Assembly (NCBI RefSeq): GCF_023558375.1
Contig: NZ_CP083762.1
Coordinates: forward strand, 64,273-88,272
Source: Chroococcidiopsis sp. CCMEE 29
GTDB lineage: Bacteria; Cyanobacteriota; Cyanobacteriia; Cyanobacteriales; Chroococcidiopsidaceae
Direction: 5' to 3'
DNA length: 24,000 nucleotides
Made by a program: the position numbers and the translations under genes. Numbering within the stretch: the first letter of the stretch is position 1; each line of letters begins with the position of its first letter. The notes beneath the pieces are model-generated. The model searched no databases. It saw only the letters and a program-made list of their open reading frames with translations, and was not told the DNA's origin. Positions 1,082 to 22,278 of the stretch are shown here, in pieces.

Positions 1082-1161
1082 GCAGATGGACAAGCTGAAG
1101 GGGCGAAAGGAAGAAGATTTCCACAAACCGTAAACCGTCCACGCACGCATGCATGAATTAG

Positions 1162-1178
1162 TTCATAAACGTTTATGG
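1162..1178. repeat. Palindromic motif TTCATAAACGTTTATGG (core CATAAACGTTTATG is a perfect 14-nt palindrome)
   Basis: Read directly. A second copy lies at 2149-2165 (one change). A third related copy at 4690-4702/7278-7284 is split by the IS insertion. Confidence 0.6.
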
Positions 1179-1235
1179 TTTTATTCATCTTGCCAGCCCA
1201 TGATTCATCAACTCTTCTACATCAGTTGTGTGCAA

Positions 1236-1295
1236 GGTTAAGCTGAGAGGCAACTGCACGCAATGAGCACAACGCAATCGCCTCTCTAGTTAGTT
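1236..1295 (-). repeat. Degenerate attC-like imperfect palindrome downstream of the AhpD-like ORF
   Basis: On the minus strand it reads AACTAAC-TAGAGAGGCGATTGCG...CGTGCAGTTGCCTCTCAG-CTTAACC. The inner arms pair (GAGAGGC/GCCTCTC). The outer right box is degenerate. It starts 16 nt after the stop codon. Confidence 0.3.
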
Positions 1296-1311
1296 GGAAT
1301 GCGATTTATCT

Positions 1312-1872
1312 TTATACTGTCAGCGCAGGCTTTGACCAAACGTAGGGTTGGAACGGTTTATCCAGTGGCGTTTTAGCAATGTGATTCGTGTAGTTGTGCA
1401 TGATTTTAATCGCAATCCCCAGAATAACTTCCAGCAGTTGCTGTTGGGTATAACCCACTGCTAAGAATTCCTCGATTTCACGCTCGTCAACCCAACCCCG
1501 CGCTTGAATCATTCGTTGGGTAAAATGACGCAACGCTTGTAATTTTCGGTCACTCAGCGCTGTACCGTTGCGAAGCGCTTGAATATCGTCAGCCGACATG
1601 CCAATCATCTTTGCCAACCCAGAATGGGCTGCCATGCAGTAATGACATTCGTGTTCATAATTCACTGTCAAGTAAATCACTTGCTGTTCGATTGGGCTGA
1701 AACTAGTGGTTTCAAATAAATCCCACAGTGCCATTGAGCCTTTGAGCAATGCAGGGGCTTGGGCAAAAATCCCTTCTAGATTCGGAATAAACCCAAATGT
1801 CTGTTTCGCATGAACTAATGCTGCTTTGGACTTTTCAGGGGCAGTATCGATGGTGTAAATGGGAAAGTCCAT
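1312..1872 (-). CDS. Carboxymuconolactone decarboxylase / AhpD-like family protein
   Basis: 186-aa ORF with the AhpD-core CxxC signature (EHECHYCMAAH) and typical length. Confidence 0.85.
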   Translation of the reverse strand: MDFPIYTIDTAPEKSKAALVHAKQTFGFIPNLEGIFAQAPALLKGSMALWDLFETTSFSPIEQQVIYLTVNYEHECHYCMAAHSGLAKMIGMSADDIQALRNGTALSDRKLQALRHFTQRMIQARGWVDEREIEEFLAVGYTQQQLLEVILGIAIKIMHNYTNHIAKTPLDKPFQPYVWSKPALTV

Positions 1873-1898
1873 TAGTGTTTGCCTCCAATTCGCTGGCA

Positions 1899-1960
1899 GG
1901 TAGACAGAGTTGTCTACCTAAATCAGGTGTTATTGTAGGGCAAAGGAGACAATCTTGTCT
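1899..1960. promoter_or_regulatory. Two AGACA-N4-TGTCT palindromes (putative operator pair) upstream of the AhpD-like gene
   Basis: GGTAGACAGAGTTGTCTACC (1899-1918) and AGACAATCTTGTCT (1947-1960). Both have the same half-sites and spacing, with centres 45 bp apart, 27-88 nt upstream of the start at 1872. Confidence 0.4.
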
Positions 1961-2148
1961 ACTTATCAACCTATCTATGGTCGCCTCATCCAGTCACGCT
2001 CGACAGTAAATTCTCGAAATCGCGTTTGAACTCTTCTATCACAAGGGCATTCAATTGCAGGCATGAACTTGGGATTCGGGATCGCGGTCAAGTAACACCA
2101 TTCAAAGAGAGGGGCAGAGTTTTCCCCTTCTCCTTGCAATGTTCATAA

Positions 2149-2165
2149 TTCATAAATGTTTATGG
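2149..2165. repeat. Second copy of the TTCATAAAYGTTTATGG motif
   Basis: TTCATAAATGTTTATGG is 16/17 identical to 1162-1178 and is preceded by a partial tandem GTTCATAA. The two copies flank the AhpD-like gene. Confidence 0.6.
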
Positions 2166-2269
2166 GTGGTGTTCTAGATATGTTGGTCAGCCTTGTAAAC
2201 CAATTGACCTGACTAAACCTAAAAATCACTAACAACAGATTTGCAACACTACCCTCACGCTTAATCTCC

Positions 2270-2356
2270 GCCTAACAGTTGAACTCACCCGTCACTGGAG
2301 GCTTTGGGTGGATACCAGCAGCTCAGCGCGGGGTCGGGTGCAGTAATTTGTTATGT
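2270..2356 (-). repeat. attC-like recombination-site candidate (A) after the GFA ORF
   Basis: The minus strand reads ACATAAC-aaattactGCACCCGACCCCGCG...CGGGTGagttcaact-GTTAGGC. The right box fits GTTRRRY, and the inner arms pair with unpaired extra bases. The left box contains the GFA stop codon. Confidence 0.45.
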
Positions 2357-2770
2357 GCCTTCAGTATTTTCACCTAGCGCAAATTTGGCGAATATTTCTG
2401 CTTCTGTCATATTCAAGGTTTGATTAACAAATTCATAGTAACTAGGTTTCATGTCTATAAAGATTTGCTCCTTGAACTCAAACTCAATTCCATTCTGAAA
2501 AAGACCGGCTGGAACAAAATATTCTTTGGTGGGCAATAATCTGTAGAAAATATGCGTACCGCATTCACCACAAAAAGCTCTTTCAGCCCATTCTGAGGAC
2601 TTATACACTTTTAGTTTATCAACGCCGTCTATCTGCACATCTGACCCGCAAGCTACACCTAATGCTGGTCCGCCTCCCCATCGCCGACACATTCCGCAAT
2701 GACAGGCATCTATGCTGTTTTTGTCTGGTGTTCTGACTGTTATTGCACCACAAAGACACTTACCATCCAT
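2351..2770 (-). CDS. GFA (glutathione-dependent formaldehyde-activating / CENP-V-like) family protein
   Basis: 139 aa with the characteristic Cys clusters CLCGAI, CHCGMCRRWGGGP and CGECGTHIF. Confidence 0.85.
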   Translation of the reverse strand: MDGKCLCGAITVRTPDKNSIDACHCGMCRRWGGGPALGVACGSDVQIDGVDKLKVYKSSEWAERAFCGECGTHIFYRLLPTKEYFVPAGLFQNGIEFEFKEQIFIDMKPSYYEFVNQTLNMTEAEIFAKFALGENTEGT

Positions 2771-2812
2771 TCCTTTTTCCTCTATTTTCAGTAATTACTG
2801 TCTGATTCTGGT

Positions 2813-2898
2813 ACATAACGGCAAAATGCAGCGGCGGTAGACAACTTTTGCAACTCCACAAGTGGCTTTCATCGGTCCGCTGCCGTAAAGTGTTATGC
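2813..2898 (-). repeat. attC-like recombination-site candidate (B) after the GNAT ORF
   Basis: The minus strand reads GCATAAC-actttacGGCAGCGGaccg...ccGCCGCTGCattttgcc-GTTATGT. The outer boxes are mutually complementary. It starts 14 nt after the GNAT stop and ends 43 nt before the GFA ATG. Confidence 0.4.
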
Positions 2899-2912
2899 GG
2901 CGCATACAGCAA

Positions 2913-3338
2913 TTAATGTAACTCCTTCTTCAGAAAATAGCGCCTATAACCCTGGGGAAAGTTTGGTAACTCACCGAAAACAGCATATCCACGTTTTTGG
3001 TAAAACTCTGGAGCTTGAAAACTAAATGTATCCAAATATGCGTATTGACAACCGCGCTTCACAGCTTCCTGTTCCGCAGCAGCTAGAAGAGCATCTCCGT
3101 AACCTTCTCCGCGAAACGATTCATGCACGCACAACACATCAACATACAACCACTGCCAATAGGTTTCTCCAATCAACCCACCCACTACATGATTATCCGA
3201 ATCTCGCAAAAAGATCACTAAAGGTTTGTAATTACCCTCACCAGCGCGGCTGCTATTGAATTTTATAATCTGCTGAGTGACAAATTCAATTTCATCAGGT
3301 TGTGGTTCTACAGCTATCTCAATTCTTGGCTGCTTCAT
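2913..3338 (-). CDS. GNAT family N-acetyltransferase
   Basis: 141 aa. Acetyl-CoA binding motif A region (VHESFRGEGYGDALLAAAEQEAVKRGC) and a C-terminal FYQKRGY motif. Confidence 0.85.
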   Translation of the reverse strand: MKQPRIEIAVEPQPDEIEFVTQQIIKFNSSRAGEGNYKPLVIFLRDSDNHVVGGLIGETYWQWLYVDVLCVHESFRGEGYGDALLAAAEQEAVKRGCQYAYLDTFSFQAPEFYQKRGYAVFGELPNFPQGYRRYFLKKELH

Positions 3339-3433
3339 CGCGATTTACTCTGCTATCCAGCAAAAACTCAGCTTCATTTTAGAACCAGTACGATAGCTTC
3401 TAACTTTGCAACAATGCTCTGCCAACGAGCTTA

Positions 3434-3517
3434 AACTAACTTAACCTTAGAATTCGGCAGATGAGCTTTAAATACCGTCGCCACAGGTAACTCAAGCCGC
3501 ATAATAAATAGTTAGCC
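3434..3517. repeat. Central attC-like palindrome (C) between divergent cassettes
   Basis: AACTAAC ... GTTAGCC on the plus strand reads GGCTAAC ... GTTAGTT on the minus strand. Inner pairing is weak. GNAT leaves leftward and the hydrolase rightward from this site. Confidence 0.3.
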
Positions 3518-3536
3518 GCTGCCAACAGGGGAGGTT

Positions 3537-4433
3537 ATGTACCGAAAGCACATCCATACGACACGTTTGGAAATCGCCTATTTGGAAGACGGCCCCGAAG
3601 ACGGCGCACCCGTACTCCTTCTACACGGCTTCCCGGACGACGCGACCGGCTGGCGGGATGTCATGGCAGGTCTGGCGGCGCAGGGCTACCGTGCGCTGGC
3701 ACCATACATCCGTGGTTGCGGCCTGACCCGGTTCCTGCGGACCGATACGCCGCGAGCCGGGGACTTCGCGGCGCTTGGCCAAGACGCCGTGGATTTCGTG
3801 GACGCGCTGGCCCTCAACAACTTAATCGTGGTCGGCCAGGATTGGGGCTCGCCGACCGCCGAGGTCGTCGCGATGCAACGTCCCGACCGTGTCCGGAGGC
3901 TGGTGAAGCTGAATTGGTACGGCGTCTACTCGATGGCGGAGATGGCGCGGGCGCGGGAGTTTTCCTACCCGCAGCTGCGCGCCCTGTGGTACGTCTGGAT
4001 GTTCAACACGCCTTTGGGCGAGATGACCCTCAGAAACGACCGCGCCGGGCTGGCTAGGGCGCTGTGGACCGAGTGGTCGCCCACCTGGGATGCCGCGGCG
4101 CGGGAAGCGGCGCTCGGTGCCGTCGCCGGCTCATTCGACGGGGAGGACTGGGTGAGGGTCGCCCTTTCGGCGTACCGTGTGGGCATCACGGATGCGGAGA
4201 TGGACCGCGCCGACGATGCCCTACGTGAGAGGCTGAAGGAACCGCCGCCCTGCGCGTGCGAGGCCGTTATCCTGAACGGTGCTGACGATGGTGTGGAACG
4301 AACCCCGCTTGAAGAGACGGCGCTCGCGCGCTACTTCCCCGCCGGGGCGCGGGTCGAGACGCTTGATGGTGTCGGGCACTTCCCCCAGCGAGAATTACCC
4401 GTTGCGGTGATTCGCTTTATCCTCGGCCAGTAG
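3537..4433 (+). CDS. Alpha/beta hydrolase fold protein (epoxide hydrolase / haloalkane dehalogenase-like)
   Basis: 298 aa with HGFPD (oxyanion region) and the nucleophile-elbow-like GQDWGS. It is conspicuously GC-rich compared with all neighbours. Confidence 0.85.
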   Translation: MYRKHIHTTRLEIAYLEDGPEDGAPVLLLHGFPDDATGWRDVMAGLAAQGYRALAPYIRGCGLTRFLRTDTPRAGDFAALGQDAVDFVDALALNNLIVVGQDWGSPTAEVVAMQRPDRVRRLVKLNWYGVYSMAEMARAREFSYPQLRALWYVWMFNTPLGEMTLRNDRAGLARALWTEWSPTWDAAAREAALGAVAGSFDGEDWVRVALSAYRVGITDAEMDRADDALRERLKEPPPCACEAVILNGADDGVERTPLEETALARYFPAGARVETLDGVGHFPQRELPVAVIRFILGQ

Positions 4434-4445
4434 CCACCCAGTCGC

Positions 4446-4547
4446 GGCTAACAACGGCACGCACCCGACCGCGGATAGCGTTGCCTTCATCCGCGAGACT
4501 TGTCGCTGGCAAAAGTTCGTCGCGGCGGGTGATGCCTGGCGTTAGGC
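4446..4547 (+). repeat. attC-like recombination-site candidate (D) after the hydrolase ORF
   Basis: GGCTAAC-aacggcacGCACCCGACCGCGG...CGCGGCGGGTGatgcctggc-GTTAGGC. The arms pair with bulged bases. It shares GCACCCGACC..CGGGTG and the GTTAGGC box with site A. It starts 12 nt after the stop. Confidence 0.5.
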
Positions 4548-4708
4548 GGAGATTAAGCGTGGGATATGGTTTTACCTAAAGCTTGCCCCATGTTGAGAAC
4601 ACACAACCTTCCATGAGTCAACTCCTCATACCCCTACCAACAGGTTTTGACCGCACCCGCAAGCTCCAACGCCGGCAGTCAGCAGAAAACAATAGACGTT
4701 TATAGGAC

Positions 4709-5668
4709 TTACGCATTGACAAAAGACTGATTATGTAAATTCACTTCAAGTTTCTGCTGGAGGTGTTCTAGAATGAATTCCCTTGCCACCTGTAGGTACA
4801 AATTCTTTTGTAATTCGTACCAGTTTTCAATTAGTTCTTCAGCTCGCATTAACTCTAACTTAGTAAAGGCTCGGATTGAACAAAAAATGTGAGTTTTAAT
4901 AGCCTCACTTGTTCTGACCATAAACCGCGAAACTCCACACAGTTGTTTCAAGGCTCGGTGATAGCATTCAATTCCCCAATGGATTGAGTGCGACTCATTG
5001 AATTCCTGTCGGCTAACTTGTTCGGTAGCATCTGAATTAGGTAGGTATGTAATGTAGTATCTCTCGGCTTCGTTTTTGAATATCCTCCGAAATACTTTGA
5101 CGCGCCCAAAGTTTTTCAGATGTATTACCAAACCTTGGTCAGGAATTTCCAAATTTTGTACCTGGGTGTAATTTTTACCATCAGTTGAGACTTTTCGATT
5201 TTTGGCAATACCCATGAGAAATCCTACTTCCCGGTTTTTCAAGAATTTCAGATTTTCAAGGGCTGAATACCAAGCATCACCAGTTACCGTTTCTGGCTGC
5301 AAGCCCCAAGCCAAAACCTCCGTAATCATTACTCGAAAGTAATCGTTTTTTGTCAAACCCTCCCGCTTATCGTAGATCCGATAATTAACTGGGATAGACT
5401 TAGCTGATGCGTCGGTGTAATACAGGGTAATGAGGTGAAGCCCTTTAACAATTCGATGATGTTTTCCTGACCAAAAGTATCCAATTAGTTCAGCTAAATT
5501 TGGCTCACTATAAGGTTTATCAATAACGGTATCGTCACAGCTTAAAGTGCCGCCCACCAATTGAATGTGTGGTTTTATCTCTTCAAACAAGTCTTTAGGT
5601 TGATATCTTTCCCTTAACAAGAAGCGATTGACGCTGTCGTGTGAGACGTGCTTAAGAATTTCTGACAA
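4709..5668 (-). CDS. DDE transposase, IS4/IS701-superfamily (family tentative)
   Basis: 319 aa in the ORF track from an internal TTG. The frame stays open to 5803 (adding ...STIREITKPSTAKCNLDTYTLFLLAEPKYAGCNRL) with no ATG/GTG/TTG in that stretch. DDE-like landmarks: CDDTVIDKPY, GDAWY, HWGIECYHRALKQ. The stop lies inside the IR. Confidence 0.75.
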   Translation of the reverse strand: MSEILKHVSHDSVNRFLLRERYQPKDLFEEIKPHIQLVGGTLSCDDTVIDKPYSEPNLAELIGYFWSGKHHRIVKGLHLITLYYTDASAKSIPVNYRIYDKREGLTKNDYFRVMITEVLAWGLQPETVTGDAWYSALENLKFLKNREVGFLMGIAKNRKVSTDGKNYTQVQNLEIPDQGLVIHLKNFGRVKVFRRIFKNEAERYYITYLPNSDATEQVSRQEFNESHSIHWGIECYHRALKQLCGVSRFMVRTSEAIKTHIFCSIRAFTKLELMRAEELIENWYELQKNLYLQVAREFILEHLQQKLEVNLHNQSFVNA

Positions 5669-14130: not shown

Positions 14131-14646
14131 ATGGAAACGAACCAAACCGAACACACCTCACACATGCCTGTTCAACCTCAAAAAGAACATCAGTGGCTCC
14201 AGAAACTTGTCGGTGAGTGGACCTATGAATCCGAAGCGCTGATGGGACCCGATCAACCTCCCGTCAAGTCAACGGGAACAGAAACAGTTCGCTCACTGGG
14301 TGGACTCTGGATATTGGCAGAAGGACAGGGTGAGATGCCGGGTTGTGGTCCTGCAACGACACTGATGACCCTCGGCTACGATCCTCAAAAACAGCGTTAT
14401 GTAGGCACCTGGGTCGGGTCAATGATGACGTACCTCTGGGTGTATGACGGTGAATTAGATGCAGGGGAAACTGTGCTAACGCTCAATTCCGATGGACCTG
14501 TCATGACGGGTGAGGAGAAACTAGGAAAGTACAAAGACGCGATCGAGTTCAAGAGCGACAATCATCGAATTTTGACCTCCCATATGTTGAGAGATGACGG
14601 GCAGTGGCAGCACTTCATGACCGCCCATTATTGGCGCAAGCAATAA
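14131..14646 (+). CDS. DUF1579 family protein
   Basis: 171 aa. LQKLVGEWTYE ... SLGGLWILAEGQGEMPG ... TLGYDPQKQRYVGTWVGSMMTYLW. Confidence 0.7.
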   Translation: METNQTEHTSHMPVQPQKEHQWLQKLVGEWTYESEALMGPDQPPVKSTGTETVRSLGGLWILAEGQGEMPGCGPATTLMTLGYDPQKQRYVGTWVGSMMTYLWVYDGELDAGETVLTLNSDGPVMTGEEKLGKYKDAIEFKSDNHRILTSHMLRDDGQWQHFMTAHYWRKQ

Positions 14647-14932
14647 ATGCTCCACGATTCTCTTGTAAGTTGCCATTTAATCTGGCTCCAGTCTCGCACG
14701 CGCATCCAGTCAGAACCAGGTTGTGTACCGATTGCCTGAAATCCGTAACGTTCTGCCAACCGGGATACTCTCAGGTTGGCACTTACAGAAATACCGATAA
14801 TCTCCTTCAGTCCCAAATCGCGGAACCCAAAATCAATCAGAGCTTTCCCGACTTCAATGGCATAGGCATAACGTCCCCAGTACTGTGGTGCTAGCTCAAT
14901 TCCAAGTTCTGCCTGCCCAGCAGCATAGCTGG
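14628..14932 (-). pseudogene. GNAT (RimJ/RimL-like) acetyltransferase, C-terminal ~100 codons only
   Basis: The frame is open up to the intron boundary: ..AELGIELAPQYWGRYAYAIEVGKALIDFGFRDLGLKEIIGISVSANLRVSRLAERYGFQAIG. The N-terminal ~70 codons are missing and were not found on the far side of the mobile block. Confidence 0.65.
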
Positions 14933-17418
14933 ATGCCTAAGCCAGGAAGTCACCCCCCTGACTCGGCTACAAAACCGTGCATGAAACGTTAATTTCACAC
15001 GGCTCCTCGATGATTTGGTGCTTGACAAGCACACCTCTAAATTCAGAGTTAAAAGGGATTACAGTTGAGATAATCCTCATCTATCTCTGGAACTGTAAGA
15101 GCAACTTTATCTGCTGCCGTTTTAGCATCGTGGCAATGTCCATGAAGTAATTGAAGATTGTCATAACTATCCTTACCGCCTTGAGAGCGGGGTATTTTAT
15201 GGTCGATTTCCATCAAGTCATCATGGTGAAAAAACAGTCCACAGTGAGTACACTTTCCTTTCTGCATCTTCAAGAGTGTTGCCATTCTTTTTGAAGCTTC
15301 AGGATGTTTACCCATTCTGGAACTCCAGTACACCCAATCACCATCAAACGGGCTACGACTTCCTTGCACTTGTATGTGTCTCACAATGCGAGTTTCACGG
15401 TGCTTGAGTAAGCGAATTTTCTGGTTATGGGGTTTAAATACCCAGTTATCAGACCCTACGGTTTGCCAATACTTTTGACAACTCCATCGGGAGGATTTAT
15501 TGGGGTGACGATGTTCTGCCCATGCTTTTAGCTGGCTGAATAATGTTGTATCCGCCTGGTTAAATATGCGTTTGCTGACGACGCCTGAGTAGTAGTTTGT
15601 CCATCCACGGATGACAGGATTTAGATGGGTGATTAAATCAGATTGTGGTACTGACTTATGCCCATCAATCAATTTACCTATCTTCTGCATATGTGCCTTC
15701 AGCTTTGTTTTGCTTGGGGTAATCAGAGTTTTGTAACCAAGTAATTTTCCGCTTGAGCTTTTACCACTGTGATATTTTCCTACAGGAAATTGTCGAACAG
15801 TGAAACCCAGAAAATCAAAACCAACTTTACCTTCATACATATTAAGTGTATGGGATATTCGGGTTTTACTTGGTTTGAATTCCAGCCCCAATTCGCTTAA
15901 CCATTCACTAATAATCTGCTGACATCTTTGGATAACGGCAAGGTCTTTATGCAGAATGACGAAATCATCTGCAAATCGAATTAAGCTTATTGCTGTATAG
16001 TTCGCCGCTAGAGAGCCAGGTAGACTTAAAGCAACTTGTTTAATTCTATTCTCCATGCCGTGGAGGGCTATATTCGCTAATAATGGCGAAATCGTACCCC
16101 CTTGTGGAACACCCATCGATGTTGTGTGGTCAGATTTCTCCCTCAAAGCATATTCGGAGAAATCAATCACTCCCGCTTTTAACCATGCACGAATTTGTCG
16201 GCGGATGGTGGGGAATGTATTTAATTTTGACAGCAGAACATTATGATGAATTTTGTCAAAACATTTTGCAATGTCGGCATCCAAAACATATTTAGGTTTG
16301 AGCTTAATAGTGTTGAATATTGCCTTCATTGCATCATGGGCATTTCTTCCTGGTCGGAAGCCGAAGGAGTTTGGCTCGAAACGAGCTTCCCATTCAGGTT
16401 CTAGGGCTAGTTTTACTAGCGATTGCAAGGCGCGGTCGTATAGAGTGGGTATAGAAAGGGGTCTTTTTTCTCCTGATGAACCGGGTTTTGGTATCCACAC
16501 CCTGCGAGTGGGGGCGGCTTTATGACCTAGTTTCAAGGATTGTACTAAGATGAGACGTGCTTTTGGGGACAAGTTTTTCTGCCCATCCACTCCTGCCGTC
16601 TTCTTACCTCGGTTTTCCTGTGTTACCCGACGAACCGCTAAACACTTTGCTGACCAGGAGCGTAACAACGTTTTTTGGAGTTGACGAACTGCTTTGACAT
16701 CACCACGCTGCGAGGCTTTGTAGATGCGCTTTTGCAACTTAAACACTTTCCGCTCTAGCTTTCGCCAGGGGATAGTCTTCCATTCCACCGTAGTCTTAAA
16801 ACTCGTTTTAGACATATAAATTGCTACTGGTACCTCTACAATCCAAGTCACCGTGCCTCCGTCTGCATATCCTCTGGCTTTCCCAAAGGCTTTGGCTTCT
16901 GAGGCAATCCTTCCCCTTGAAGGCTTGCGGCTGGCTACCTACTTAGGAAATCGACCATTTCCTGAGAGCGCATCAGGGGGTTACTTCGTTCCAATTCTTC
17001 GTTTGTCGCTGGTTTTAGGGTTCTCTCTCTTCACCGGGTTTATTGTGAGTGCATATTGGTCTGCCGCTTAATCAGCCAACCACTTATCCTTTCCCTTTTG
17101 GGACAAGCCTGACAGCCTTTTGGCTTGTTTTGCATTACGATGATTCAGTCAAGAGATTTGTATTCCTACCCATGACCAGCTATGCTAGGCGGGATTCCGC
17201 ATTAGGCTTGCAGTTACCGCCATGATTCCCCGCTTCATCCCATCAAAGAACCACTTGGCTGAAATGGGGGACTCGCTGTCACTCCTGCACTTGGAGGGAT
17301 GGAATTACACCATCACGAAAAATTGAGTTATCAAGGAACAGGAGAAGATTTCTCTCTTCTATCTTCCTTGTCTGTCATCCCCGAATATTTCTATTCGTTT
17401 CGACAGAACGAATCACAC
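14933..17418 (-). mobile_element. Group II intron, copy 1 (2486 nt)
   Basis: It starts GTGTG (17418 downward), has the RT/maturase/HNH ORF in domain IV, a canonical domain V and a domain VI with bulged A, and ends ..GGCAT at 14933 (+/-1-2 nt). Confidence 0.9.
15049..16851 (-). CDS. Group II intron reverse transcriptase/maturase with HNH endonuclease domain
   Basis: RT blocks (RRVWIPKPGSSGEKRPLSIPTLYDRALQ; FADDFVIL in place of YADD), X/maturase (RGWTNYY) and HNH (CTHCG...DHKIPRSQGG...HGHCH). The likely true start is ATG 16815 (MSKTSF..). The ORF-track start is a GTG. Confidence 0.9.
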   Translation of the reverse strand: MTWIVEVPVAIYMSKTSFKTTVEWKTIPWRKLERKVFKLQKRIYKASQRGDVKAVRQLQKTLLRSWSAKCLAVRRVTQENRGKKTAGVDGQKNLSPKARLILVQSLKLGHKAAPTRRVWIPKPGSSGEKRPLSIPTLYDRALQSLVKLALEPEWEARFEPNSFGFRPGRNAHDAMKAIFNTIKLKPKYVLDADIAKCFDKIHHNVLLSKLNTFPTIRRQIRAWLKAGVIDFSEYALREKSDHTTSMGVPQGGTISPLLANIALHGMENRIKQVALSLPGSLAANYTAISLIRFADDFVILHKDLAVIQRCQQIISEWLSELGLEFKPSKTRISHTLNMYEGKVGFDFLGFTVRQFPVGKYHSGKSSSGKLLGYKTLITPSKTKLKAHMQKIGKLIDGHKSVPQSDLITHLNPVIRGWTNYYSGVVSKRIFNQADTTLFSQLKAWAEHRHPNKSSRWSCQKYWQTVGSDNWVFKPHNQKIRLLKHRETRIVRHIQVQGSRSPFDGDWVYWSSRMGKHPEASKRMATLLKMQKGKCTHCGLFFHHDDLMEIDHKIPRSQGGKDSYDNLQLLHGHCHDAKTAADKVALTVPEIDEDYLNCNPF

Positions 17419-17648
17419 TAGCGACCTGCAATTATAAATGCTCAAACCTGCAAACAAGTCATTTTCAAACCAGCGTTTTCTTGACTTTCCTATTGGTAAG
17501 AGTTTCTGAACCCTAAACCGCCTACTCTCTAGTTAAAAAAGTCGGTAAAGAATTCAAAGTTAACTTATCAAATGCTGAGATGAGTTTTTTTGACAACCCC
17601 TGCAAGTCCTCACAGCCCAGTGCTAATAAGGCGTTTACTCTATTTGCA

Positions 17649-19500
17649 AATAATCCTGGGTCTTCCGCGATTTTGATGATGGAGAGGAATGTCACGGATG
17701 AGCGATCGCTCTTGATTGGAAACAGGATGAGGCGATCACCATTGGATGAACTGAAAACAGCAGAACAGAGAGTTCTAAACTGCCAATAAGAATCGTCGCT
17801 CAAGCAGCTCCATCCCAGCGCGACCATACATCTGCCGCTTCAACATCTTCAGTCGATTGATCTGCCCTTCGGTTTGACCGTTGCTCCAAGGAAGTGTTAC
17901 ACCTGCCTTAACAGCATCATAGTCCTCTTGCAGCCGTTTGGCAAAGCGGTTGAAAGGAGAAAGCTGGCTATGGAGCGCCTGTTCTAACCAAGGGTCGAGT
18001 TGCTCTGGCTGTCTGTCACGCACGAGAAAGGCAAAGCTTTGAGCGAGTTCAATCGCTTGGGTGAGGTCAGGATGCTGTGCCATGGCTTGTACGAGCTGTG
18101 CGTCATCTGGTTCCCAATTCTCCGGTCGTCGCGCTGCACATCTGGTAGTGCGGCGAGGTGTGAGCGCCAGTTTCTGGGGTTCACTCACCTTTGGCAGTTG
18201 CTTAATTGAACGCCGTCGTTTCCTGCGTTGCGTTCCTTGGGCTTGACGAAAGCGACGGGTATAGCGAGCTACTGTGTCATAGCTGCCAGAATAACCACGT
18301 TGTTGAATCTCCCCAAACAACCGCAAGGTATCATGACAACCATCGTTCCAACGTTCAAGAACATAGTCTTTGTAAGGGTCAACTAAGCGGCTCCGACCAC
18401 AGTCACGGCGTCCTTGGCGCTCCGGGAAGGTGGAACTGTGTAGGTAACGAAATACCGTCGTGCGACCAATCCCCACCTGACGAGCAATTGCTGGCACCAA
18501 CCAGCCTTGGTGGTGTAATTCCCAGACTCTCTTGTAATCTGCTTCTCGCCTCGACCGACGTTGTTCGGCAATGCTTTGCTCCTTGGGCAGCGGCTGCGGT
18601 GGCAACACTGGTACAACTGCGGTACTCTCAGGACTGATTACTGATGACAGGCTGTGTATTGCCCCAACTGTCTTAAGAGCTTGACTTTGTGCGCCAAACG
18701 CTTCAGCCAATGTTTCAGCCAGGTTTTGCAGCAGATGAAATCGGTCTGCTACTTGGATAGCCGTCGGTGCCCCTTGCCGAATGCCCCTTTCGTAAGCTTT
18801 GGAGCGATCTCGGGTGACGATTTCCACGCCTGGATGAACACAGAGCCAGTTGGCTAACGTCGATGCTTCCCGATCTGGCAGGAGCTCGATTGGTCGATGT
18901 TGTTCCAGGTTCACCAGAATTGTGCCGTAACGTCGCCCTTTCCGCCATGCCCAATCATCAACTCCAAGCACGCGGGGAGTCGCGTTGACAGCTAACCGAC
19001 TTTGATGAATGCGTCGCAATATCGTGTCCGGGCTGATAGGCATCCCTAGCCCCACCGCTAGCTTCACTCTAGCTTGACCACCTAGCATCATCCCAATCAG
19101 ATGCAGGGCATCATTGAATCGTACCGTTTGTCTACCATAAGCAGCGACGACGCGGGGCAGCCGTTCACAGAAAATTCGTCGTACACATGTCCGATTGACA
19201 CAGAAGAACCGACGGGTGAGTAGTTGTATTTGTACAGTAGCTCCTTGCCAAGGTAGATCTGTGAGTATGCGTTCGTAGCGACTATGTACCTGTGATGAAG
19301 GTTGGTGGCATTTGGGGCACAGAGCTACCGCTCTGATTGTCTTGACAACCAAGACCACTTGCGTGTCTTCTACAGAGAGGCTTTCTAGAGCGAGTACTTG
19401 AGGGTCAGCGAGGAGAGGGCTTTGATTCATATAACCCTCTTATTATAGCGAATTGCTACCTCATGCTTCATCAAAATTGCGGAAGACCCGTAATTACAGC
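17649..19500 (-). mobile_element. ISL3-family insertion sequence
   Basis: IRs GGGTCTTCCGCGATTTTGATGA (17658-17679) and TCATCAAAATTGCGGAAGACCC (19468-19489). Flanking direct repeat CTATTTGCA (17640-17648 and 19501-19509). Confidence 0.85.
17775..19430 (-). CDS. ISL3 family transposase
   Basis: 551 aa. N-terminal zinc finger CPKCHQPSSQVHSRYER, LPWQG motif, central DDWAWRKGRRYGT and a C-terminal SNGQTEGQINRLKMLKRQMYGRA signature. Confidence 0.9.
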   Translation of the reverse strand: MNQSPLLADPQVLALESLSVEDTQVVLVVKTIRAVALCPKCHQPSSQVHSRYERILTDLPWQGATVQIQLLTRRFFCVNRTCVRRIFCERLPRVVAAYGRQTVRFNDALHLIGMMLGGQARVKLAVGLGMPISPDTILRRIHQSRLAVNATPRVLGVDDWAWRKGRRYGTILVNLEQHRPIELLPDREASTLANWLCVHPGVEIVTRDRSKAYERGIRQGAPTAIQVADRFHLLQNLAETLAEAFGAQSQALKTVGAIHSLSSVISPESTAVVPVLPPQPLPKEQSIAEQRRSRREADYKRVWELHHQGWLVPAIARQVGIGRTTVFRYLHSSTFPERQGRRDCGRSRLVDPYKDYVLERWNDGCHDTLRLFGEIQQRGYSGSYDTVARYTRRFRQAQGTQRRKRRRSIKQLPKVSEPQKLALTPRRTTRCAARRPENWEPDDAQLVQAMAQHPDLTQAIELAQSFAFLVRDRQPEQLDPWLEQALHSQLSPFNRFAKRLQEDYDAVKAGVTLPWSNGQTEGQINRLKMLKRQMYGRAGMELLERRFLLAV

Positions 19501-19568
19501 CTATTTGCACTTAATGTGGTTTTGAAACCTTGTTTGCAGTTTGAGGCTCTGCTGTTTGCAGGTCGCTA

Positions 19569-22054
19569 GTGTGATTCGTTCTGTCGAAACGAATAGAAAT
19601 ATTCGGGGATGACAGACAAGGAAGATAGAAGAGAGAAATCTTCTCCTGTTCCTTGATAACTCAATTTTTCGTGATGGTGTAATTCCATCCCTCCAAGTGC
19701 AGGAGTGACAGCGAGTCCCCCATTTCAGCCAAGTGGTTCTTTGATGGGATGAAGCGGGGAATCATGGCGGTAACTGCAAGCCTAATGCGGAATCCCGCCT
19801 AGCATAGCTGGTCATGGGTAGGAATACAAATCTCTTGACTGAATCATCGTAATGCAAAACAAGCCAAAAGGCTGTCAGGCTTGTCCCAAAAGGGAAAGGA
19901 TAAGTGGTTGGCTGATTAAGCGGCAGACCAATATGCACTCACAATAAACCCGGTGAAGAGAGAGAACCCTAAAACCAGCGACAAACGAAGAATTGGAACG
20001 AAGTAACCCCCTGATGCGCTCTCAGGAAATGGTCGATTTCCTAAGTAGGTAGCCAGCCGCAAGCCTTCAAGGGGAAGGATTGCCTCAGAAGCCAAAGCCT
20101 TTGGGAAAGCCAGAGGATATGCAGACGGAGGCACGGTGACTTGGATTGTAGAGGTACCAGTAGCAATTTATATGTCTAAAACGAGTTTTAAGACTACGGT
20201 GGAATGGAAGACTATCCCCTGGCGAAAGCTAGAGCGGAAAGTGTTTAAGTTGCAAAAGCGCATCTACAAAGCCTCGCAGCGTGGTGATGTCAAAGCAGTT
20301 CGTCAACTCCAAAAAACGTTGTTACGCTCCTGGTCAGCAAAGTGTTTAGCGGTTCGTCGGGTAACACAGGAAAACCGAGGTAAGAAGACGGCAGGAGTGG
20401 ATGGGCAGAAAAACTTGTCCCCAAAAGCACGTCTCATCTTAGTACAATCCTTGAAACTAGGTCATAAAGCCGCCCCCACTCGCAGGGTGTGGATACCAAA
20501 ACCCGGTTCATCAGGAGAAAAAAGACCCCTTTCTATACCCACTCTATACGACCGCGCCTTGCAATCGCTAGTAAAACTAGCCCTAGAACCTGAATGGGAA
20601 GCTCGTTTCGAGCCAAACTCCTTCGGCTTCCGACCAGGAAGAAATGCCCATGATGCAATGAAGGCAATATTCAACACTATTAAGCTCAAACCTAAATATG
20701 TTTTGGATGCCGACATTGCAAAATGTTTTGACAAAATTCATCATAATGTTCTGCTGTCAAAATTAAATACATTCCCCACCATCCGCCGACAAATTCGTGC
20801 ATGGTTAAAAGCGGGAGTGATTGATTTCTCCGAATATGCTTTGAGGGAGAAATCTGACCACACAACATCGATGGGTGTTCCACAAGGGGGTACGATTTCG
20901 CCATTATTAGCGAATATAGCCCTCCACGGCATGGAGAATAGAATTAAACAAGTTGCTTTAAGTCTACCTGGCTCTCTAGCGGCGAACTATACAGCAATAA
21001 GCTTAATTCGATTTGCAGATGATTTCGTCATTCTGCATAAAGACCTTGCCGTTATCCAAAGATGTCAGCAGATTATTAGTGAATGGTTAAGCGAATTGGG
21101 GCTGGAATTCAAACCAAGTAAAACCCGAATATCCCATACACTTAATATGTATGAAGGTAAAGTTGGTTTTGATTTTCTGGGTTTCACTGTTCGACAATTT
21201 CCTGTAGGAAAATATCACAGTGGTAAAAGCTCAAGCGGAAAATTACTTGGTTACAAAACTCTGATTACCCCAAGCAAAACAAAGCTGAAGGCACATATGC
21301 AGAAGATAGGTAAATTGATTGATGGGCATAAGTCAGTACCACAATCTGATTTAATCACCCATCTAAATCCTGTCATCCGTGGATGGACAAACTACTACTC
21401 AGGCGTCGTCAGCAAACGCATATTTAACCAGGCGGATACAACATTATTCAGCCAGCTAAAAGCATGGGCAGAACATCGTCACCCCAATAAATCCTCCCGA
21501 TGGAGTTGTCAAAAGTATTGGCAAACCGTAGGGTCTGATAACTGGGTATTTAAACCCCATAACCAGAAAATTCGCTTACTCAAGCACCGTGAAACTCGCA
21601 TTGTGAGACACATACAAGTGCAAGGAAGTCGTAGCCCGTTTGATGGTGATTGGGTGTACTGGAGTTCCAGAATGGGTAAACATCCTGAAGCTTCAAAAAG
21701 AATGGCAACACTCTTGAAGATGCAGAAAGGAAAGTGTACTCACTGTGGACTGTTTTTTCACCATGATGACTTGATGGAAATCGACCATAAAATACCCCGC
21801 TCTCAAGGCGGTAAGGATAGTTATGACAATCTTCAATTACTTCATGGACATTGCCACGATGCTAAAACGGCAGCAGATAAAGTTGCTCTTACAGTTCCAG
21901 AGATAGATGAGGATTATCTCAACTGTAATCCCTTTTAACTCTGAATTTAGAGGTGTGCTTGTCAAGCACCAAATCATCGAGGAGCCGTGTGAAATTAACG
22001 TTTCATGCACGGTTTTGTAGCCGAGTCAGGGGGGTGACTTCCTGGCTTAGGCAT
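19569..22054 (+). mobile_element. Group II intron, copy 2 (2486 nt)
   Basis: GTGTG at 19569. Domain V GAGCCGTGTGAAATTAACGTTTCATGCACGGTTT at 21982-22015. Domain VI GCCGAGTCAGG...CCTGGCTTAGGC with bulged A. Ends GGCAT at 22054. By-eye comparison with copy 1 found no differences. Confidence 0.9.
20136..21938 (+). CDS. Group II intron reverse transcriptase/maturase with HNH endonuclease domain
   Basis: 600-aa translation identical to the copy at 15049-16851. The probable ATG start is at 20172. Confidence 0.9.
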   Translation: MTWIVEVPVAIYMSKTSFKTTVEWKTIPWRKLERKVFKLQKRIYKASQRGDVKAVRQLQKTLLRSWSAKCLAVRRVTQENRGKKTAGVDGQKNLSPKARLILVQSLKLGHKAAPTRRVWIPKPGSSGEKRPLSIPTLYDRALQSLVKLALEPEWEARFEPNSFGFRPGRNAHDAMKAIFNTIKLKPKYVLDADIAKCFDKIHHNVLLSKLNTFPTIRRQIRAWLKAGVIDFSEYALREKSDHTTSMGVPQGGTISPLLANIALHGMENRIKQVALSLPGSLAANYTAISLIRFADDFVILHKDLAVIQRCQQIISEWLSELGLEFKPSKTRISHTLNMYEGKVGFDFLGFTVRQFPVGKYHSGKSSSGKLLGYKTLITPSKTKLKAHMQKIGKLIDGHKSVPQSDLITHLNPVIRGWTNYYSGVVSKRIFNQADTTLFSQLKAWAEHRHPNKSSRWSCQKYWQTVGSDNWVFKPHNQKIRLLKHRETRIVRHIQVQGSRSPFDGDWVYWSSRMGKHPEASKRMATLLKMQKGKCTHCGLFFHHDDLMEIDHKIPRSQGGKDSYDNLQLLHGHCHDAKTAADKVALTVPEIDEDYLNCNPF

Positions 22055-22278
22055 CCACTTGACAAAGAAAAATAATTTGATTGCTTATAAATAAGGTTAG
22101 GGCGTGTCTGCGAACTAAGTATCCTAGTAAAGGAGTGTTAGGAGAAACGGATTGAGACTAAGATAGAAGTAATTAGTGCTCACACGTTTTTACTATCGAA
22201 AGTAGGTGAAGTGCTGACTACCAGGAAGAGTGAATTGGAAGTGATAACTTCACTGCTGTACAAAAGCCAACCCTTTGC

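What the first reader, a model, noticed from the sequence alone, without database searches (positions are those of the whole stretch)
1236..4563. Integron-like cassette array without an integrase, with cassettes diverging from a central palindrome
Four short ORFs are each followed within 0-17 nt by a 60-102-nt imperfect palindrome. The outer boxes are ..YTAAC and GTTA..., and the right boxes GTTAGGC (twice), GTTATGT and GTTAGCC fit or nearly fit the attC GTTRRRY consensus. The inner arms pair with unpaired extra bases. Sites A and D share GCACCCGACC...CGGGTG. Unit sizes (about 550, 630, 1040 and 1040 bp) are cassette-like. Unlike canonical integrons, three cassettes point left and one points right from a central site (3434-3517). 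That could result from inversion between inverted attC sites. No intI or attI is visible in the window.
Basis: partly seen in the sequence, partly recalled or inferred. Interest (0 to 1): 0.7.

Follow-up and report, generated by a model that had tools for sequence, protein, structure and literature searches.

The report
Back-to-back integron cassettes, no integrase
Three genuine integron gene cassettes sit on a large replicon of the cyanobacterium Chroococcidiopsis sp. CCMEE 29 with no integrase nearby; this is a known kind of element, but the cassettes are joined head to head across a 7-base attI-like spacer, which suggests they entered from both sides of one symmetric recombination site.

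Summary
The core of the finding holds. Window 2270-4547 carries three real integron cassettes: GFA 2276-2818 (-), GNAT 2819-3504 (-) and alpha/beta-hydrolase 3512-4541 (+). Each ends in a true attC site.

A covariance model built only from attC sites of other cyanobacteria scores these sites at 34.7, 82.7 and 31.6 bits, strongly favouring one strand. The same model finds textbook class 1 attC sites. Both attC families also lie beside full-length integron integrases in other cyanobacteria. All three cassettes recur elsewhere in other contexts, with homology to the window starting right after an attC's G (GNAT, hydrolase) and, where a comparison was possible (GNAT, GFA), ending at G|TT. The window holds no intI, so this is a CALIN, a known kind.

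- The hairpin at 1236-1310 follows an ordinary TetR-type regulated gene.
- The "central palindrome" 3434-3517 is really the GNAT cassette leader, 7 nt (TAAATAG), and the start of the hydrolase cassette.

Removing the cassettes rebuilds a 47-nt perfect palindrome. Its core, CCGCCTAA-TAAATAG-TTAGGCGG, matches attI cores of related integrons. The best reading is two opposite integrase-mediated insertions at the two cleavage positions of a symmetric attI-like site. This is inferred, not shown. Interest is moderate.

The parts
2256..2275 (.). Left arm of the bracketing inverted repeat (CACGCTTAATCTCCGCCTAA). It is the inferred left half of the original target site and ends in an L-box-like CCGCCTAA.
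   Evidence: It is a perfect 20-nt inverted repeat with 4542-4561. It starts exactly at the crossover point after attC_B. It is not part of the GFA cassette, because L108 and L109 diverge after G|TTA. The inner TCCGCCTAA plus spacer is identical to the L151 attI-like core.
2270..2356 (-). attC site of the GFA cassette (family 1: ACATAAC...GCACCCGAC...CGGGTGA...GTTAGGC). Its R'' box overlaps the GFA stop codon.
   Evidence: R1 gives 51.4 bits. The independent model R2 gives 34.7 bits (E 2e-7), against 13.7 bits on the other strand. Unpaired top-strand bases lie at model positions 16 and 23 (alignment).
2276..2818 (-). GFA cassette (543 nt): starts TTATGTACC..., contains ORF 2351-2770 (139 aa, GFA family), and ends with the G of attC_B.
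   Evidence: Pfam PF04828. The homologous cassette in L109 starts TTATGTGCC right after a G and ends ...G|TTATGCGG. L108 ends ...G|TTAGGCATT.
2813..2898 (-). attC site of the GNAT cassette (family 2: GCATAACACTTTACGGCAGCGGAC...CCGCCGCTGCATTTTGCCGTTATGT).
   Evidence: R2 gives 82.7 bits (E 9e-21), against 15.4 bits on the other strand. It is 75-88% identical to one site in each of more than 45 cyanobacterial genomes, including sites next to full-length intI in L043 and L094.
2819..3504 (-). GNAT cassette (686 nt): a 166-nt leader (3339-3504), ORF 2913-3338 (141 aa acetyltransferase), and attC_C.
   Evidence: Window 2816-3504 is 99.3% identical to L003/L004, where the cassette lies fourth in a one-directional array. 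Homology ends at G|TTA on both sides. It is 92% identical to L012, next to an intI remnant.
3505..3511 (.). 7-nt spacer TAAATAG between the two head-to-head cassette starts. It is the inferred central region of an attI-like core site.
   Evidence: The limits are set by comparison of both neighbouring cassettes with other contexts. The spacer is identical to that of the attI of L066 (CCGTATAA-TAAATAG|TTAGACC) and of L151 (CCGCCTAA-TAAATAG|TTAGGC). The geometry matches attI1, CCCTAA-AACAAAG|TTAG.
3512..4541 (+). Alpha/beta-hydrolase cassette (1030 nt): starts TTAGCCGCTGCC..., has a 25-nt leader with GGAGG, ORF 3537-4433 (298 aa), and attC_D. It is 67% G+C.
   Evidence: Pfam PF00561/PF12697. G+C profile. 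The homologous cassettes in L104 (85% aa) and L105 (81% aa) start TTAGCCGCT / TTAGCTGCT directly after the G of a preceding attC.
4446..4547 (+). attC site of the hydrolase cassette (family 1, long variable loop: GGCTAAC...GCACCCGAC...CGGGTGA...GTTAGGC).
   Evidence: R1 gives 45.9 bits. R2 gives 31.6 bits (E 1.4e-6), against 12.8 bits on the other strand. The fold shows the R stem, two stems, and two unpaired bases on the '' arm.
4542..4561 (.). Right arm of the bracketing inverted repeat (TTAGGCGGAGATTAAGCGTG). It is the inferred right half of the original target site, with an R-box-like G|TTAGGC.
   Evidence: It is the perfect inverted copy of 2256-2275 and starts exactly at the crossover point after attC_D. 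An independent Logan assembly contig (L002) spans the centre, the cassette and this arm.

Best explanation
Window 2256-4561 is a cluster of integron cassettes lacking an integrase (CALIN). It lies on the 673-kb replicon of Chroococcidiopsis sp. CCMEE 29.

It holds three mobile cassettes, each a promoterless-looking ORF plus a folded attC site: GFA and GNAT read leftwards, and a high-GC alpha/beta hydrolase reads rightwards.

The cassettes were most likely integrated by a cyanobacterial integron integrase acting in trans or since lost. The target was one double-stranded, attI-like core site of the form [CCGCCTAA]-TAAATAG-[TTAGGCGG], whose two arms are perfect inverted copies over 20 nt. Because the site is symmetric, either half-site could serve as the cleaved 'R box':
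- The hydrolase cassette entered at the canonical position (TAAATAG|TT on the + strand).
- The GNAT and GFA cassettes entered at the mirror position, 7 bp away on the other strand (CTATTTA|TT).

The result is two sub-arrays that point away from a 7-bp spacer, each followed by one arm of the old site.

Shown: attC identity, cassette limits, absence of intI in the window, the 7-nt centre, the 20-nt inverted repeat, and the resemblance to attI cores. Inferred: that the palindrome pre-existed, that both joints were made by IntI, and the order of events.
For: (1) attC identity.
- The structure is R''/R' AAC..GTT, two stems, an unpaired A at top-strand position 23 and an unpaired base at position 16. 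These are the positions named G16/T23 for attCaadA7 in PMC5027507.
- The structure is 93% paired across 100 distinct cyanobacterial sites, with 10 of 14 pairs covarying.
- Model R2, built without window sequences, scores the three sites at 82.7, 34.7 and 31.6 bits. Nothing else in 24 kb is significant.
- The same models find aadA2, gcuF and another class 1 attC on the correct strand at 22.8-39 bits.

(2) Link to integrases.
- Both attC families occur in arrays next to full-length IntI genes in L094 and L043.
- Those proteins score 465 and 463 bits on TIGR02249, cutoff 265.

(3) Mobility at G|TT.
- The GNAT cassette is 99.3% identical in L003/L004, with homology ending at the crossover on both sides.
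- The hydrolase cassette start follows another attC's G in L104/L105.
- The GFA cassette diverges from L108/L109 after G|TTA.

(4) Geometry.
- The two cassette starts are 7 nt apart.
- The flanks are a perfect 20-nt inverted repeat that begins at the crossover on each side.
- The rebuilt core TCCGCCTAATAAATAG|TTAGGC is identical to the attI-like core of L151. It is 15/19 identical to the attI of L066, which lies next to an intI remnant. No position of the real window reaches 15/19.
- The box-7 nt-box spacing equals that of attI1.

(5) Cleavage positions.
- The + strand joints ...GCCTAA|C... and ...GCATAA|TAAATAG are those expected from a single-strand exchange after 'AA' of the left half-site, as IntI does at AA|C (PMC5027507).
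- Loot et al. showed that IntI inserts cassettes in either orientation into double-stranded non-att sites (bioRxiv 10.1101/2022.09.11.507474).
Against: - No unoccupied copy of the 47-nt palindrome, or of its 20-nt arm, was found in JGI metagenomes, IMG/VR, PLSDB or the fetched loci. Its prior existence is therefore a reconstruction.
- The left joint has A, not G, before TT (ATT rather than the GWT consensus of secondary sites).
- The outer 11 nt of the arm match no attI region retrieved.
- The L-box resemblance is equally met by the inverted start of the GNAT cassette (14/19 against 15/19), so the comparison with L066 does not by itself discriminate.
- Use of the left half-site of an attI-type site by IntI has not, to my knowledge, been reported.
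- Whether the host encodes an IntI is unknown.
Confidence: 0.6

Rival explanations
1. Two cassette arrays formed separately elsewhere, each ending in the same 20-nt module TTAGGCGGAGATTAAGCGTG (a conserved array end, or the start of a common cassette). A later rearrangement (inversion, IS- or homology-mediated) then brought them head to head. On this view the 7-nt centre and the attI resemblance are by-products of two R-box-like cassette starts facing each other.
For: - The replicon is full of IS elements and two inverted group II introns.
- The GNAT cassette exists in a second copy on the 5.7-Mb chromosome.
- Cassette starts (TTATGCGG, TTAGCC) resemble IntI boxes, so a face-to-face pair will look like an attI core.
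- In L151 a cassette starts TTAGGCGGTG.
- L009 shows another mixed-orientation pair without an obvious 7-nt core.
Against: - A random rearrangement would not place both breakpoints exactly at cassette starts, leave exactly 7 nt that equal the spacer of two attI-type sites, and keep the repeat identical only from the crossover point outwards.
- The covariance models find no attC after either 20-mer, so it is not the start of a normal cassette.
- Sequences beyond the 20-mer are unrelated on the two sides.
Confidence: 0.2
2. This is the remnant of a once complete integron. The centre is the true attI of an L066-type integron whose intI and upstream attI region were displaced or deleted when GNAT and GFA were joined at the L box. 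The right arm is simply what originally followed attI.
For: - The core is nearly identical to the L066 attI, which still abuts an intI fragment.
- intI decay is common near these arrays: L006, L011, L012, L044, L054, L066.
- In L012 the same GNAT cassette abuts an intI remnant.
Against: - No intI remnant lies anywhere in 24 kb.
- The window flanks show no significant similarity to the upstream attI regions of L066/L011/L054/L094, which carry direct repeats such as TTATRCGGAAAAATTC.
- This view does not explain why the left flank is the perfect inverted copy of the right flank, unless the attI was itself palindromic. In that case it merges with the main explanation.
Confidence: 0.12
3. One reading: a central attC-like palindrome (3434-3517) from which cassettes diverge, produced by IntI-mediated inversion between inverted attC sites.
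For: - Opposite orientation of the flanking attC sites.
- TAAC and GTTAGCC motifs near 3436 and 3511.
Against: - 3434-3517 scores 6.8-10.2 bits (E 1.3-8) and folds no better than shuffles.
- 3339-3504 is the GNAT cassette leader, present unchanged in L003/L004/L005 downstream of a different attC.
- An inversion between two attC sites would leave hybrid attC sites at both ends, not two cassette starts 7 nt apart plus a duplicated inverted flank.
Confidence: 0.03
4. The palindromes are REP-like or terminator hairpins of the host and are unrelated to integrons.
For: - Folding energies are not better than shuffles.
- The family-2 element is widespread in cyanobacteria.
Against: - Conservation stops exactly at G|TT.
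- Sites occur in same-strand arrays after ORFs: 26 of 27 multi-site loci are one-directional.
- Some sites lie next to intI.
- The sites share architecture with class 1 attC sites.
- Cassettes move as units.
Confidence: 0.01

Closest known systems
CALIN (cluster of attC sites lacking integron-integrase; Cury et al. 2016, PMC4889954)
   Same: At least two attC sites lie less than 4 kb apart on one strand (2270-2356 and 2813-2898, both -), with no intI within reach. The cassettes are non-resistance genes. IS elements are nearby. One origin already proposed in that paper is integration at secondary sites by an integrase encoded elsewhere.
   Different: A third attC (4446-4547) lies on the opposite strand. 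IntegronFinder clusters attC sites by strand, so it would presumably report a 2-site CALIN plus a lone attC, not one unit. The two parts share a single 7-bp junction and a common inverted-repeat bracket.
Chromosomal integrons of filamentous cyanobacteria (e.g. L094 Phormidesmis sp., L043 Tildeniella nuda, L066 Nostoc sp.)
   Same: They use the same two attC families. Their attI core is of the same type (box-7 nt-G|TTAG; the L066 spacer TAAATAG is identical). The pool of cassettes is shared (GNAT, GFA and hydrolase relatives).
   Different: They have intI (320-321 aa, TIGR02249) or its remnant next to attI. Their attI regions carry several direct repeats such as TTATRCGGAAAAATTC. Their cassettes all run in one direction. 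The window has none of these three features.
attG / secondary-site cassette insertion (Loot et al., bioRxiv 10.1101/2022.09.11.507474; Nat Microbiol 2024)
   Same: Cassettes are inserted outside an integron platform into a double-stranded site by a single strand exchange. Either orientation is possible, depending on which strand carries the site. The cleavage point lies in the centre of a short core.
   Different: The reported consensus is 5'-GWT-3'. The right joint here fits it (GTT) but the left joint does not (ATT). The site looks like an attI core with long symmetric arms, not a minimal GWT site. Two insertions at mirror positions of one site were not described in the text read.
attI1 simple site of class 1 integrons (L box CCCTAAA, R box GTTRRRY; PMC12901181; sequence read in L112)
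   Same: Two inversely oriented boxes, CCTAA and TTAGG, are separated by 7 nt, and crossover follows the G: GCCCTAA-AACAAAG|TTAGCC compared with CCGCCTAA-TAAATAG|TTAGGC.
   Different: attI1 is described as non-palindromic (a title cited in PMC12901181), has DR1/DR2 on one side only, and is recombined only at the R box. The site here is symmetric over 20 nt and appears to have been used on both sides.
Inverted cassette insertion through attC top-strand recombination (Nivina et al. 2016, PMC5027507)
   Same: It yields a cassette that points the 'wrong' way relative to its neighbours.
   Different: Top-strand recombination cuts in R'', so the inverted cassette would carry shifted limits. GNAT and GFA here have the normal limits (TT...G of R'), the same as in L003 and L109. 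The inversion therefore lies in the target, not in the donor strand.

Membership tests
integron attC site | Outer inverse core and core boxes ending/starting AAC ... GTT (consensus RYYYAAC / GTTRRRY), able to pair | tested here: met
   The box pairs are ACATAAC/GTTAGGC, GCATAAC/GTTATGT and GGCTAAC/GTTAGGC. AAC/GTT is invariant in 20 of 20 aligned sites and present in 91-97 of 100. The strict RYYY/RRRY letters are not all met (e.g. GCATAAC), which is why a strict-consensus scan missed them.
integron attC site | Inner L''/L' imperfect inverted repeat with extrahelical bases on the '' arm only (positions 16 and 20-24 of the bottom strand), giving strand asymmetry | tested here: met
   An unpaired A lies at top-strand model position 23 in all three sites. 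An extra base lies at position 16 in the two family-1 sites (alignments). aadA2 attC aligns with the same unpaired A. The correct strand outscores the other by 19-67 bits. At 2270-2356 the position-16 base is C, not G, on the bottom strand.
integron attC site | Length 57-141 bp, with a variable terminal structure | tested here: met
   Lengths are 87, 86 and 102 nt. The loop regions are unrelated between families.
integron attC site | Detected by an attC covariance model | tested here: met
   IntegronFinder's own model was not available. Home-built models stood in for it. R2 contains no window sequence and gives 82.7, 34.7 and 31.6 bits. It recovers class 1 attC sites of aadA2, gcuF and one other cassette, but not dfrA12 (7.8 bits with R1), and qacG2 only weakly (14.7 bits).
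integron attC site | Marks the 3' end of a mobile cassette whose limits are G|TT | tested here: met
   The GNAT, hydrolase and GFA cassettes were compared with independent contexts. Homology begins right after an attC's G and, where testable, ends at G|TT.
integron attC site | Recombined by an IntI integrase as a folded bottom strand | not testable with these tools
   The evidence is associative only: the same attC families lie next to TIGR02249 integrases in L043 and L094.
CALIN | [quoted passage not shown] | tested here: met
   2270-2356 and 2813-2898 both lie on the - strand. The + strand holds one site only.
CALIN | No integron integrase nearby | tested here: met
   No tyrosine recombinase appears among the ORFs, and no tblastn hit with E < 4 was found in 24 kb. 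About 2.3 kb to the left and 19.5 kb to the right of the array were covered. The rest of the genome was not examined.
complete integron | intI gene adjacent to attI | tested here: not met
   
complete integron | attI site at the head of the array | tested here: inconclusive
   The core at 3496-3517 is 20/22 identical to the attI core of L066. The rebuilt core is identical to that of L151. The upstream attI region with its direct repeats is absent.
complete integron | Pc promoter reading into the cassettes | tested here: inconclusive
   Only one weak -35/-10 match (TCGCCA-16-CATAAT, 3478-3505 +) faces the hydrolase cassette. The number of matches in the region equals the shuffle expectation.
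attG secondary site | 5'-GWT-3' at the crossover, recombined as double-stranded DNA with a single cleavage | tested here: inconclusive
   The right joint TAAATAG|TT fits the consensus. The left joint CTATTTA|TT has A at -1.

The most novel reading that the evidence does not exclude
A perfectly symmetric attI-like core (two inverted IntI boxes around a 7-bp spacer, with no adjacent integrase) acts as a two-way landing pad. The integron integrase can cleave either half-site, so cassettes pile up in both directions from one point. This would be a natural 'bidirectional' integron platform, and direct genomic evidence that the L-side of an attI-type site is catalytically usable when the site is symmetric.
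Probability: 0.45. Interest if true: 0.55.

Novelty: new variant of a known kind. Interest (0 to 1): 0.4.

Why it matters
The element itself, a CALIN of metabolic cassettes in a cyanobacterium, is expected. The junction is what is useful.

It preserves at base resolution what looks like two integrase-made joints, 7 bp apart on opposite strands of one symmetric site. If confirmed, three things follow:
- The asymmetry of attI, and not the enzyme, would be what enforces one-way cassette arrays.
- There would be a simple route to mixed-orientation arrays, which strand-wise tools such as IntegronFinder split apart.
- A 47-bp natural substrate would be available for testing half-site choice by integron integrases.

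The case also documents cassette traffic within one genome: the same GNAT cassette lies on the chromosome and on the 673-kb replicon. A 67% G+C hydrolase cassette in this 42-50% G+C replicon, whose named non-cyanobacterial relatives are Gemmatimonadaceae, also hints at acquisition from outside the cyanobacteria.

Tried and rejected
- A strict RYYYAAC/GTTRRRY plus folding-energy scan found none of the sites. A relaxed version was no better than shuffles. I dropped both in favour of covariance models.
- Folding energies of single sites are not distinguishable from shuffles, so energy is not a useful criterion here.
- Rfam has no family for this region.
- I first read GTTATGTACC at 3534 as the hydrolase cassette start and 3512-3533 as a truncated attC. 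L104 and L105 show that the cassette starts at TTAGCC 3512. The 10-nt match to the GFA cassette start is coincidental.
- I considered the 20-nt arms as transposon terminal repeats. There is no target-site duplication and no other copy.
- I considered top-strand attC recombination. It was rejected because the cassette limits are canonical.
- I considered a large inverted duplication produced by single-strand exchange between inverted sites. It was rejected because only 20 nt are duplicated.
- Searches for an unoccupied site found nothing useful. The 20-mer gave 0 hits in metagenomes and in IMG/VR. A 347-nt rebuilt empty site gave 0 hits in PLSDB. The 19-nt core in metagenomes gave 66 loci, about 58 of them from an unrelated low-GC dispersed repeat, with only L151 relevant.
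- Local alignment of the flanks against attI upstream regions was not above shuffles.
- Exact-protein look-ups returned only short Logan contigs for the source strain, so the neighbourhood beyond the window could not be extended.

Full report
**Source and setting**

The window comes from Chroococcidiopsis sp. CCMEE 29. The hydrolase, GFA, CMD and vWA-like proteins of the window are recorded under that name on a 673,362-bp contig.

The 24 kb are rich in mobile DNA:
- an IS4-type DDE transposase (4709-5668);
- an IS110 transposase (7649-8719);
- an IS1 InsA gene (8866-9375);
- an ISL3 transposase (17775-19430);
- two inverted, 99.7% identical 2.53-kb copies of a group II intron.

No tyrosine recombinase is present. 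Pfam on all large ORFs found none.

**What is at the reported coordinates**

Three of the five palindromes are as described.
- 2270-2356 begins inside the stop codon of a GFA-family ORF (2351-2770, - strand).
- 2813-2898 begins 14 nt after a GNAT ORF (2913-3338, -).
- 4446-4547 begins 12 nt after an alpha/beta-hydrolase ORF (3537-4433, +).

Read on the strand of their ORF, each runs NNNTAAC...GTTANNN. The 5' arm carries extra bases that the 3' arm lacks. The hydrolase cassette is 62-68% G+C in a 42-50% background.

**Are they attC sites?**

Four lines of evidence agree.

(a) Relatives next to integrases.
- A pattern taken from the 2813-2898 site found 96 stretches in one-genome-per-species GTDB contigs.
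- More than 45 of these, all cyanobacterial, share about 75-88% identity over the whole 86-nt element.
- The sequence after the element varies from the TT of GTT onwards.
- In L094 (Phormidesmis sp.) and L043 (Tildeniella nuda) the element lies in an array next to a full-length gene 50-52% identical to IntI1. Those proteins score 465 and 463 bits on TIGR02249 'integron integrase', cutoff 265.
- The L094 array also contains the other attC family of the window.

(b) Structure.
- I aligned 20 sites and tested one common structure: an R stem, a 7-bp stem, one unpaired A, and a 3-bp stem.
- It is 92.8% paired with 8 covarying pairs.
- On 100 distinct sites from other genomes it is 93.0% paired with 10 of 14 pairs covarying. 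No shuffle and no slid register comes near these values.
- The unpaired A is top-strand position 23, and the family-1 sites have a second unpaired base at position 16. These are the positions named G16 and T23 for attCaadA7 (PMC5027507).

(c) Covariance models.
- R1 included the window sites in its training set. R2 was built only from 101 sites of other genomes.
- R2 scores the window sites at 82.7, 34.7 and 31.6 bits (E 9e-21, 2e-7, 1.4e-6) on the ORF strand, against 15.4, 13.7 and 12.8 bits on the other strand.
- Apart from these opposite-strand echoes, nothing else in 24 kb has E < 0.8.
- Both models, which contain no proteobacterial sequence, find the attC sites of aadA2 (38-39 bits), of an oxidoreductase cassette (37-38 bits) and of gcuF (23-24 bits) on the correct strand in three class 1 integrons. 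qacG2 scores weakly (14.7 bits). dfrA12 is missed (7.8 bits with R1).

(d) Mobility.
- The GNAT protein is found, 100% identical, in L003/L004. There it is the fourth cassette of a one-directional array, and window 2816-3504 is 99.3% identical at the DNA level.
- On the left, homology starts right after the G of the preceding attC (GGATCG|TTATGCGGC). On the right, it ends at GCCG|TTA.
- Hydrolase relatives (85% and 81% aa) in L104 and L105 start TTAGCCGCT / TTAGCTGCT directly after the G of another attC.
- GFA relatives in L109 and L108 share the cassette start TTATGTRCC (L109 only) and diverge from the window after G|TTA (both).

The cassettes are therefore 2276-2818, 2819-3504 and 3512-4541.

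**What is not an attC**

The hairpin at 1236-1310 has no GTT core. It scores 6.5 bits (E=9) with R1 and gave no hit with R2.
- The gene before it (CMD family) has a promoter-like site and two GTAGACAnnnTGTCTAC palindromes upstream.
- It has a paralogue on the same replicon.
- It has homologues on Nostoc, Acaryochloris and Gloeothece plasmids; in Gloeothece the match also covers an adjacent TetR-family gene.
- It is an ordinary gene.

The 'central palindrome' 3434-3517 scores 6.8-10.2 bits (E 1.3-8). It consists of the leader of the GNAT cassette (present unchanged in L003, L004 and L005), then 7 nt, then the first 6 nt of the hydrolase cassette.

**The junction**

With the limits fixed by comparison, the + strand reads:

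[CACGCTTAATCTCCGCCTAA] | GFA cassette (inverted) | GNAT cassette (inverted) ...GCCGCATAA | TAAATAG | TTAGCC... hydrolase cassette ...G | [TTAGGCGGAGATTAAGCGTG]

- The bracketed 20-mers are perfect inverted copies. They occur nowhere else in the window, and each begins exactly at the crossover point after the last attC of its side.
- They belong to neither cassette.
- Taking the cassettes out rebuilds the 47-nt perfect palindrome arm-TAAATAG-arm.
- Its core, CCGCCTAA-TAAATAG-TTAGGCGG, has the layout of an attI simple site: two inversely oriented boxes 7 nt apart, with crossover after the G.

For comparison, the attI cores read next to intI or intI remnants are:
- CAGTCTAA-ATAAGAG|TTAGCC (L043);
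- CAGCCTA-TTAATAG|TTATGC (L011);
- CCGTCTA-TTAATAG|TTAGAC (L094);
- CAGTCTA-TTAATAG|TTAGCT (L054);
- CCGTATAA-TAAATAG|TTAGACC (L066).

attI1 read from a plasmid is GCCCTAA-AACAAAG|TTAGCC.

- The L066 spacer is identical to that of the window.
- The 14-mer TAATAAATAGTTAG occurs in only L066 and the source strain among 112 loci.
- A metagenome scan for the rebuilt 19-nt core gave one relevant hit, L151. That locus reads GAAAGTTTCCGCCTAATAAATAG|TTAGGC followed by cassettes, and is identical to the rebuilt site over TCCGCCTAATAAATAGTTAGGC.
- The rebuilt left half is 15/19 identical to L066. No position of the real window reaches 15/19.

**Mechanism proposed**

IntI exchanges one strand only, cutting after AA in 5'-AA|C-3'. 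In an attI x attC reaction only the R-box side of attI is cut (PMC5027507; PMC12901181). Loot et al. showed that IntI also inserts cassettes into double-stranded non-att sites, in either orientation according to the strand that carries the site.

In a site whose two halves are mirror images, either half can play the R box.
- The hydrolase cassette sits at the canonical joint (TAAATAG|TT, i.e. AA|C on the - strand).
- GNAT and GFA sit at the mirror joint (...GCCTAA|C... and ...GCATAA|TAAATAG on the + strand, i.e. cleavage after AA of the left box).
- The two joints are 7 bp apart on opposite strands. That is the stagger expected for the two cleavage positions of a tyrosine-recombinase core.
- Top-strand recombination of the attC, the known route to inverted cassettes, is excluded, because it would shift the cassette limits to R''. 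The limits here are canonical.

**Weak points**

- The palindrome is a reconstruction, and no empty copy was found.
- The left joint is A|TT, not G|TT.
- The outer 11 nt of the arms match no attI region.
- The inverted start of the GNAT cassette mimics an L box almost as well as the arm does (14/19 against 15/19).
- A rearrangement joining two arrays that happen to end in the same 20-mer cannot be excluded, although it would have to hit both cassette starts and leave an attI-type spacer.
- Whether the host has an IntI is unknown.

**Comparison and verdict**

Cyanobacterial integrons and CALINs are known (PMC4889954). Integron integrases are annotated in many cyanobacteria. Among 27 fetched loci with two or more sites, 26 are one-directional, and only L009 is mixed.

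The window is a CALIN by definition (two same-strand sites, no intI), plus one opposite-strand cassette.

What is unusual is the shared 7-bp, attI-like junction with symmetric arms. I rate the element a new variant of a known kind, of moderate interest. My confidence that these are integron cassettes without a nearby integrase is about 0.95. My confidence in the double-insertion model is about 0.55-0.6.

Noticed in passing
window 14930-17458 (-) and 19529-22057 (+): Two 2.53-kb copies of a group II intron (RT/maturase/HNH ORFs of 600 aa; Rfam Intron_gpII domain at 14923-15007) are 99.7% identical and inverted. They flank an ISL3 transposase (17775-19430).
   Followed up: partly
window 1153-1197, 2146-2180, 4671-4710: There are three copies of a repeat containing the palindrome CATAAAYGTTTATG. 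Two direct copies bound the 987-bp CMD gene unit. One inverted copy abuts the IS4-type element. A paralogue of the CMD protein in the same 90%-identity cluster lies on the same 673-kb replicon. The nature of the repeat is unknown.
   Followed up: partly
L006-L101 (e.g. L043 3986-4071, L094 581-666, L086 2358-2443): One 86-nt attC type (GGCTAACACTTCACGGCAGCGGACGG...CTGCCGCCGCTGCGTTTTGCCGTTA) is about 75-88% identical to the window's site in more than 45 cyanobacterial species of many orders, behind different genes. It behaves like a phylum-wide counterpart of the Vibrio VCR repeat.
   Followed up: partly
L003 5400-10530 (= L004): A four-cassette, one-directional array (methyltransferase; FAD-oxidoreductase + LysR; GST; GNAT) lies between an ABC-transporter ATPase gene and its permease gene, with no intI in 20 kb. 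The identical GNAT protein is also recorded on a 5.7-Mb Chroococcidiopsis sp. CCMEE 29 contig, so the cassette occurs twice in one genome.
   Followed up: partly
L006 1952-2696, L011 5103-5632, L012 6582-6680, L044 3927-4013, L054 3334-3426, L066 6149-6358: Fragments of integron-integrase genes lie next to cassette arrays in six cyanobacterial genomes. In L012 the C-terminal 33 codons abut the same GNAT cassette, truncated in its leader.
   Followed up: partly
L009 4071-4156 (-) and 5076-5161 (+): This is the only other locus, out of 27 with two or more sites, that has attC sites on opposite strands. An inverted attC directly follows a + strand ORF. No 7-nt attI-like core was evident.
   Followed up: partly
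L151 500-900: An attI-like core (GAAAGTTTCCGCCTAATAAATAG|TTAGGC) lies downstream of a gene I took by eye to be ruvC-like (not checked) and of three direct repeats GGGGTTATTCTCAAC. It is followed by a short ORF-less unit and a normal cassette. No intI is present in the 2.1-kb contig.
   Followed up: no
L113-L178 (most): The 19-mer GCCTAATAAATAGTTAGGC is part of an unrelated dispersed repeat with about 58 copies in low-GC (23-39%) contigs of two JGI samples. It is probably a eukaryotic repeat family.
   Followed up: no
window 9405-14646: This is a block of small genes at 50-55% G+C: a glyoxalase, an ECF-type sigma factor with DUF6596, a YCII protein, a glyoxalase-like protein, DUF899 and DUF1579. 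It looks foreign but has no attC sites.
   Followed up: no
window 17419-17509 / 23698-23788 and 11172-11217 / 11267-11312: There is a 91-nt direct repeat (98.9% identical) 6.3 kb apart, and a 46-nt direct repeat (95.7% identical) 95 nt apart. Both are unexplained.
   Followed up: no
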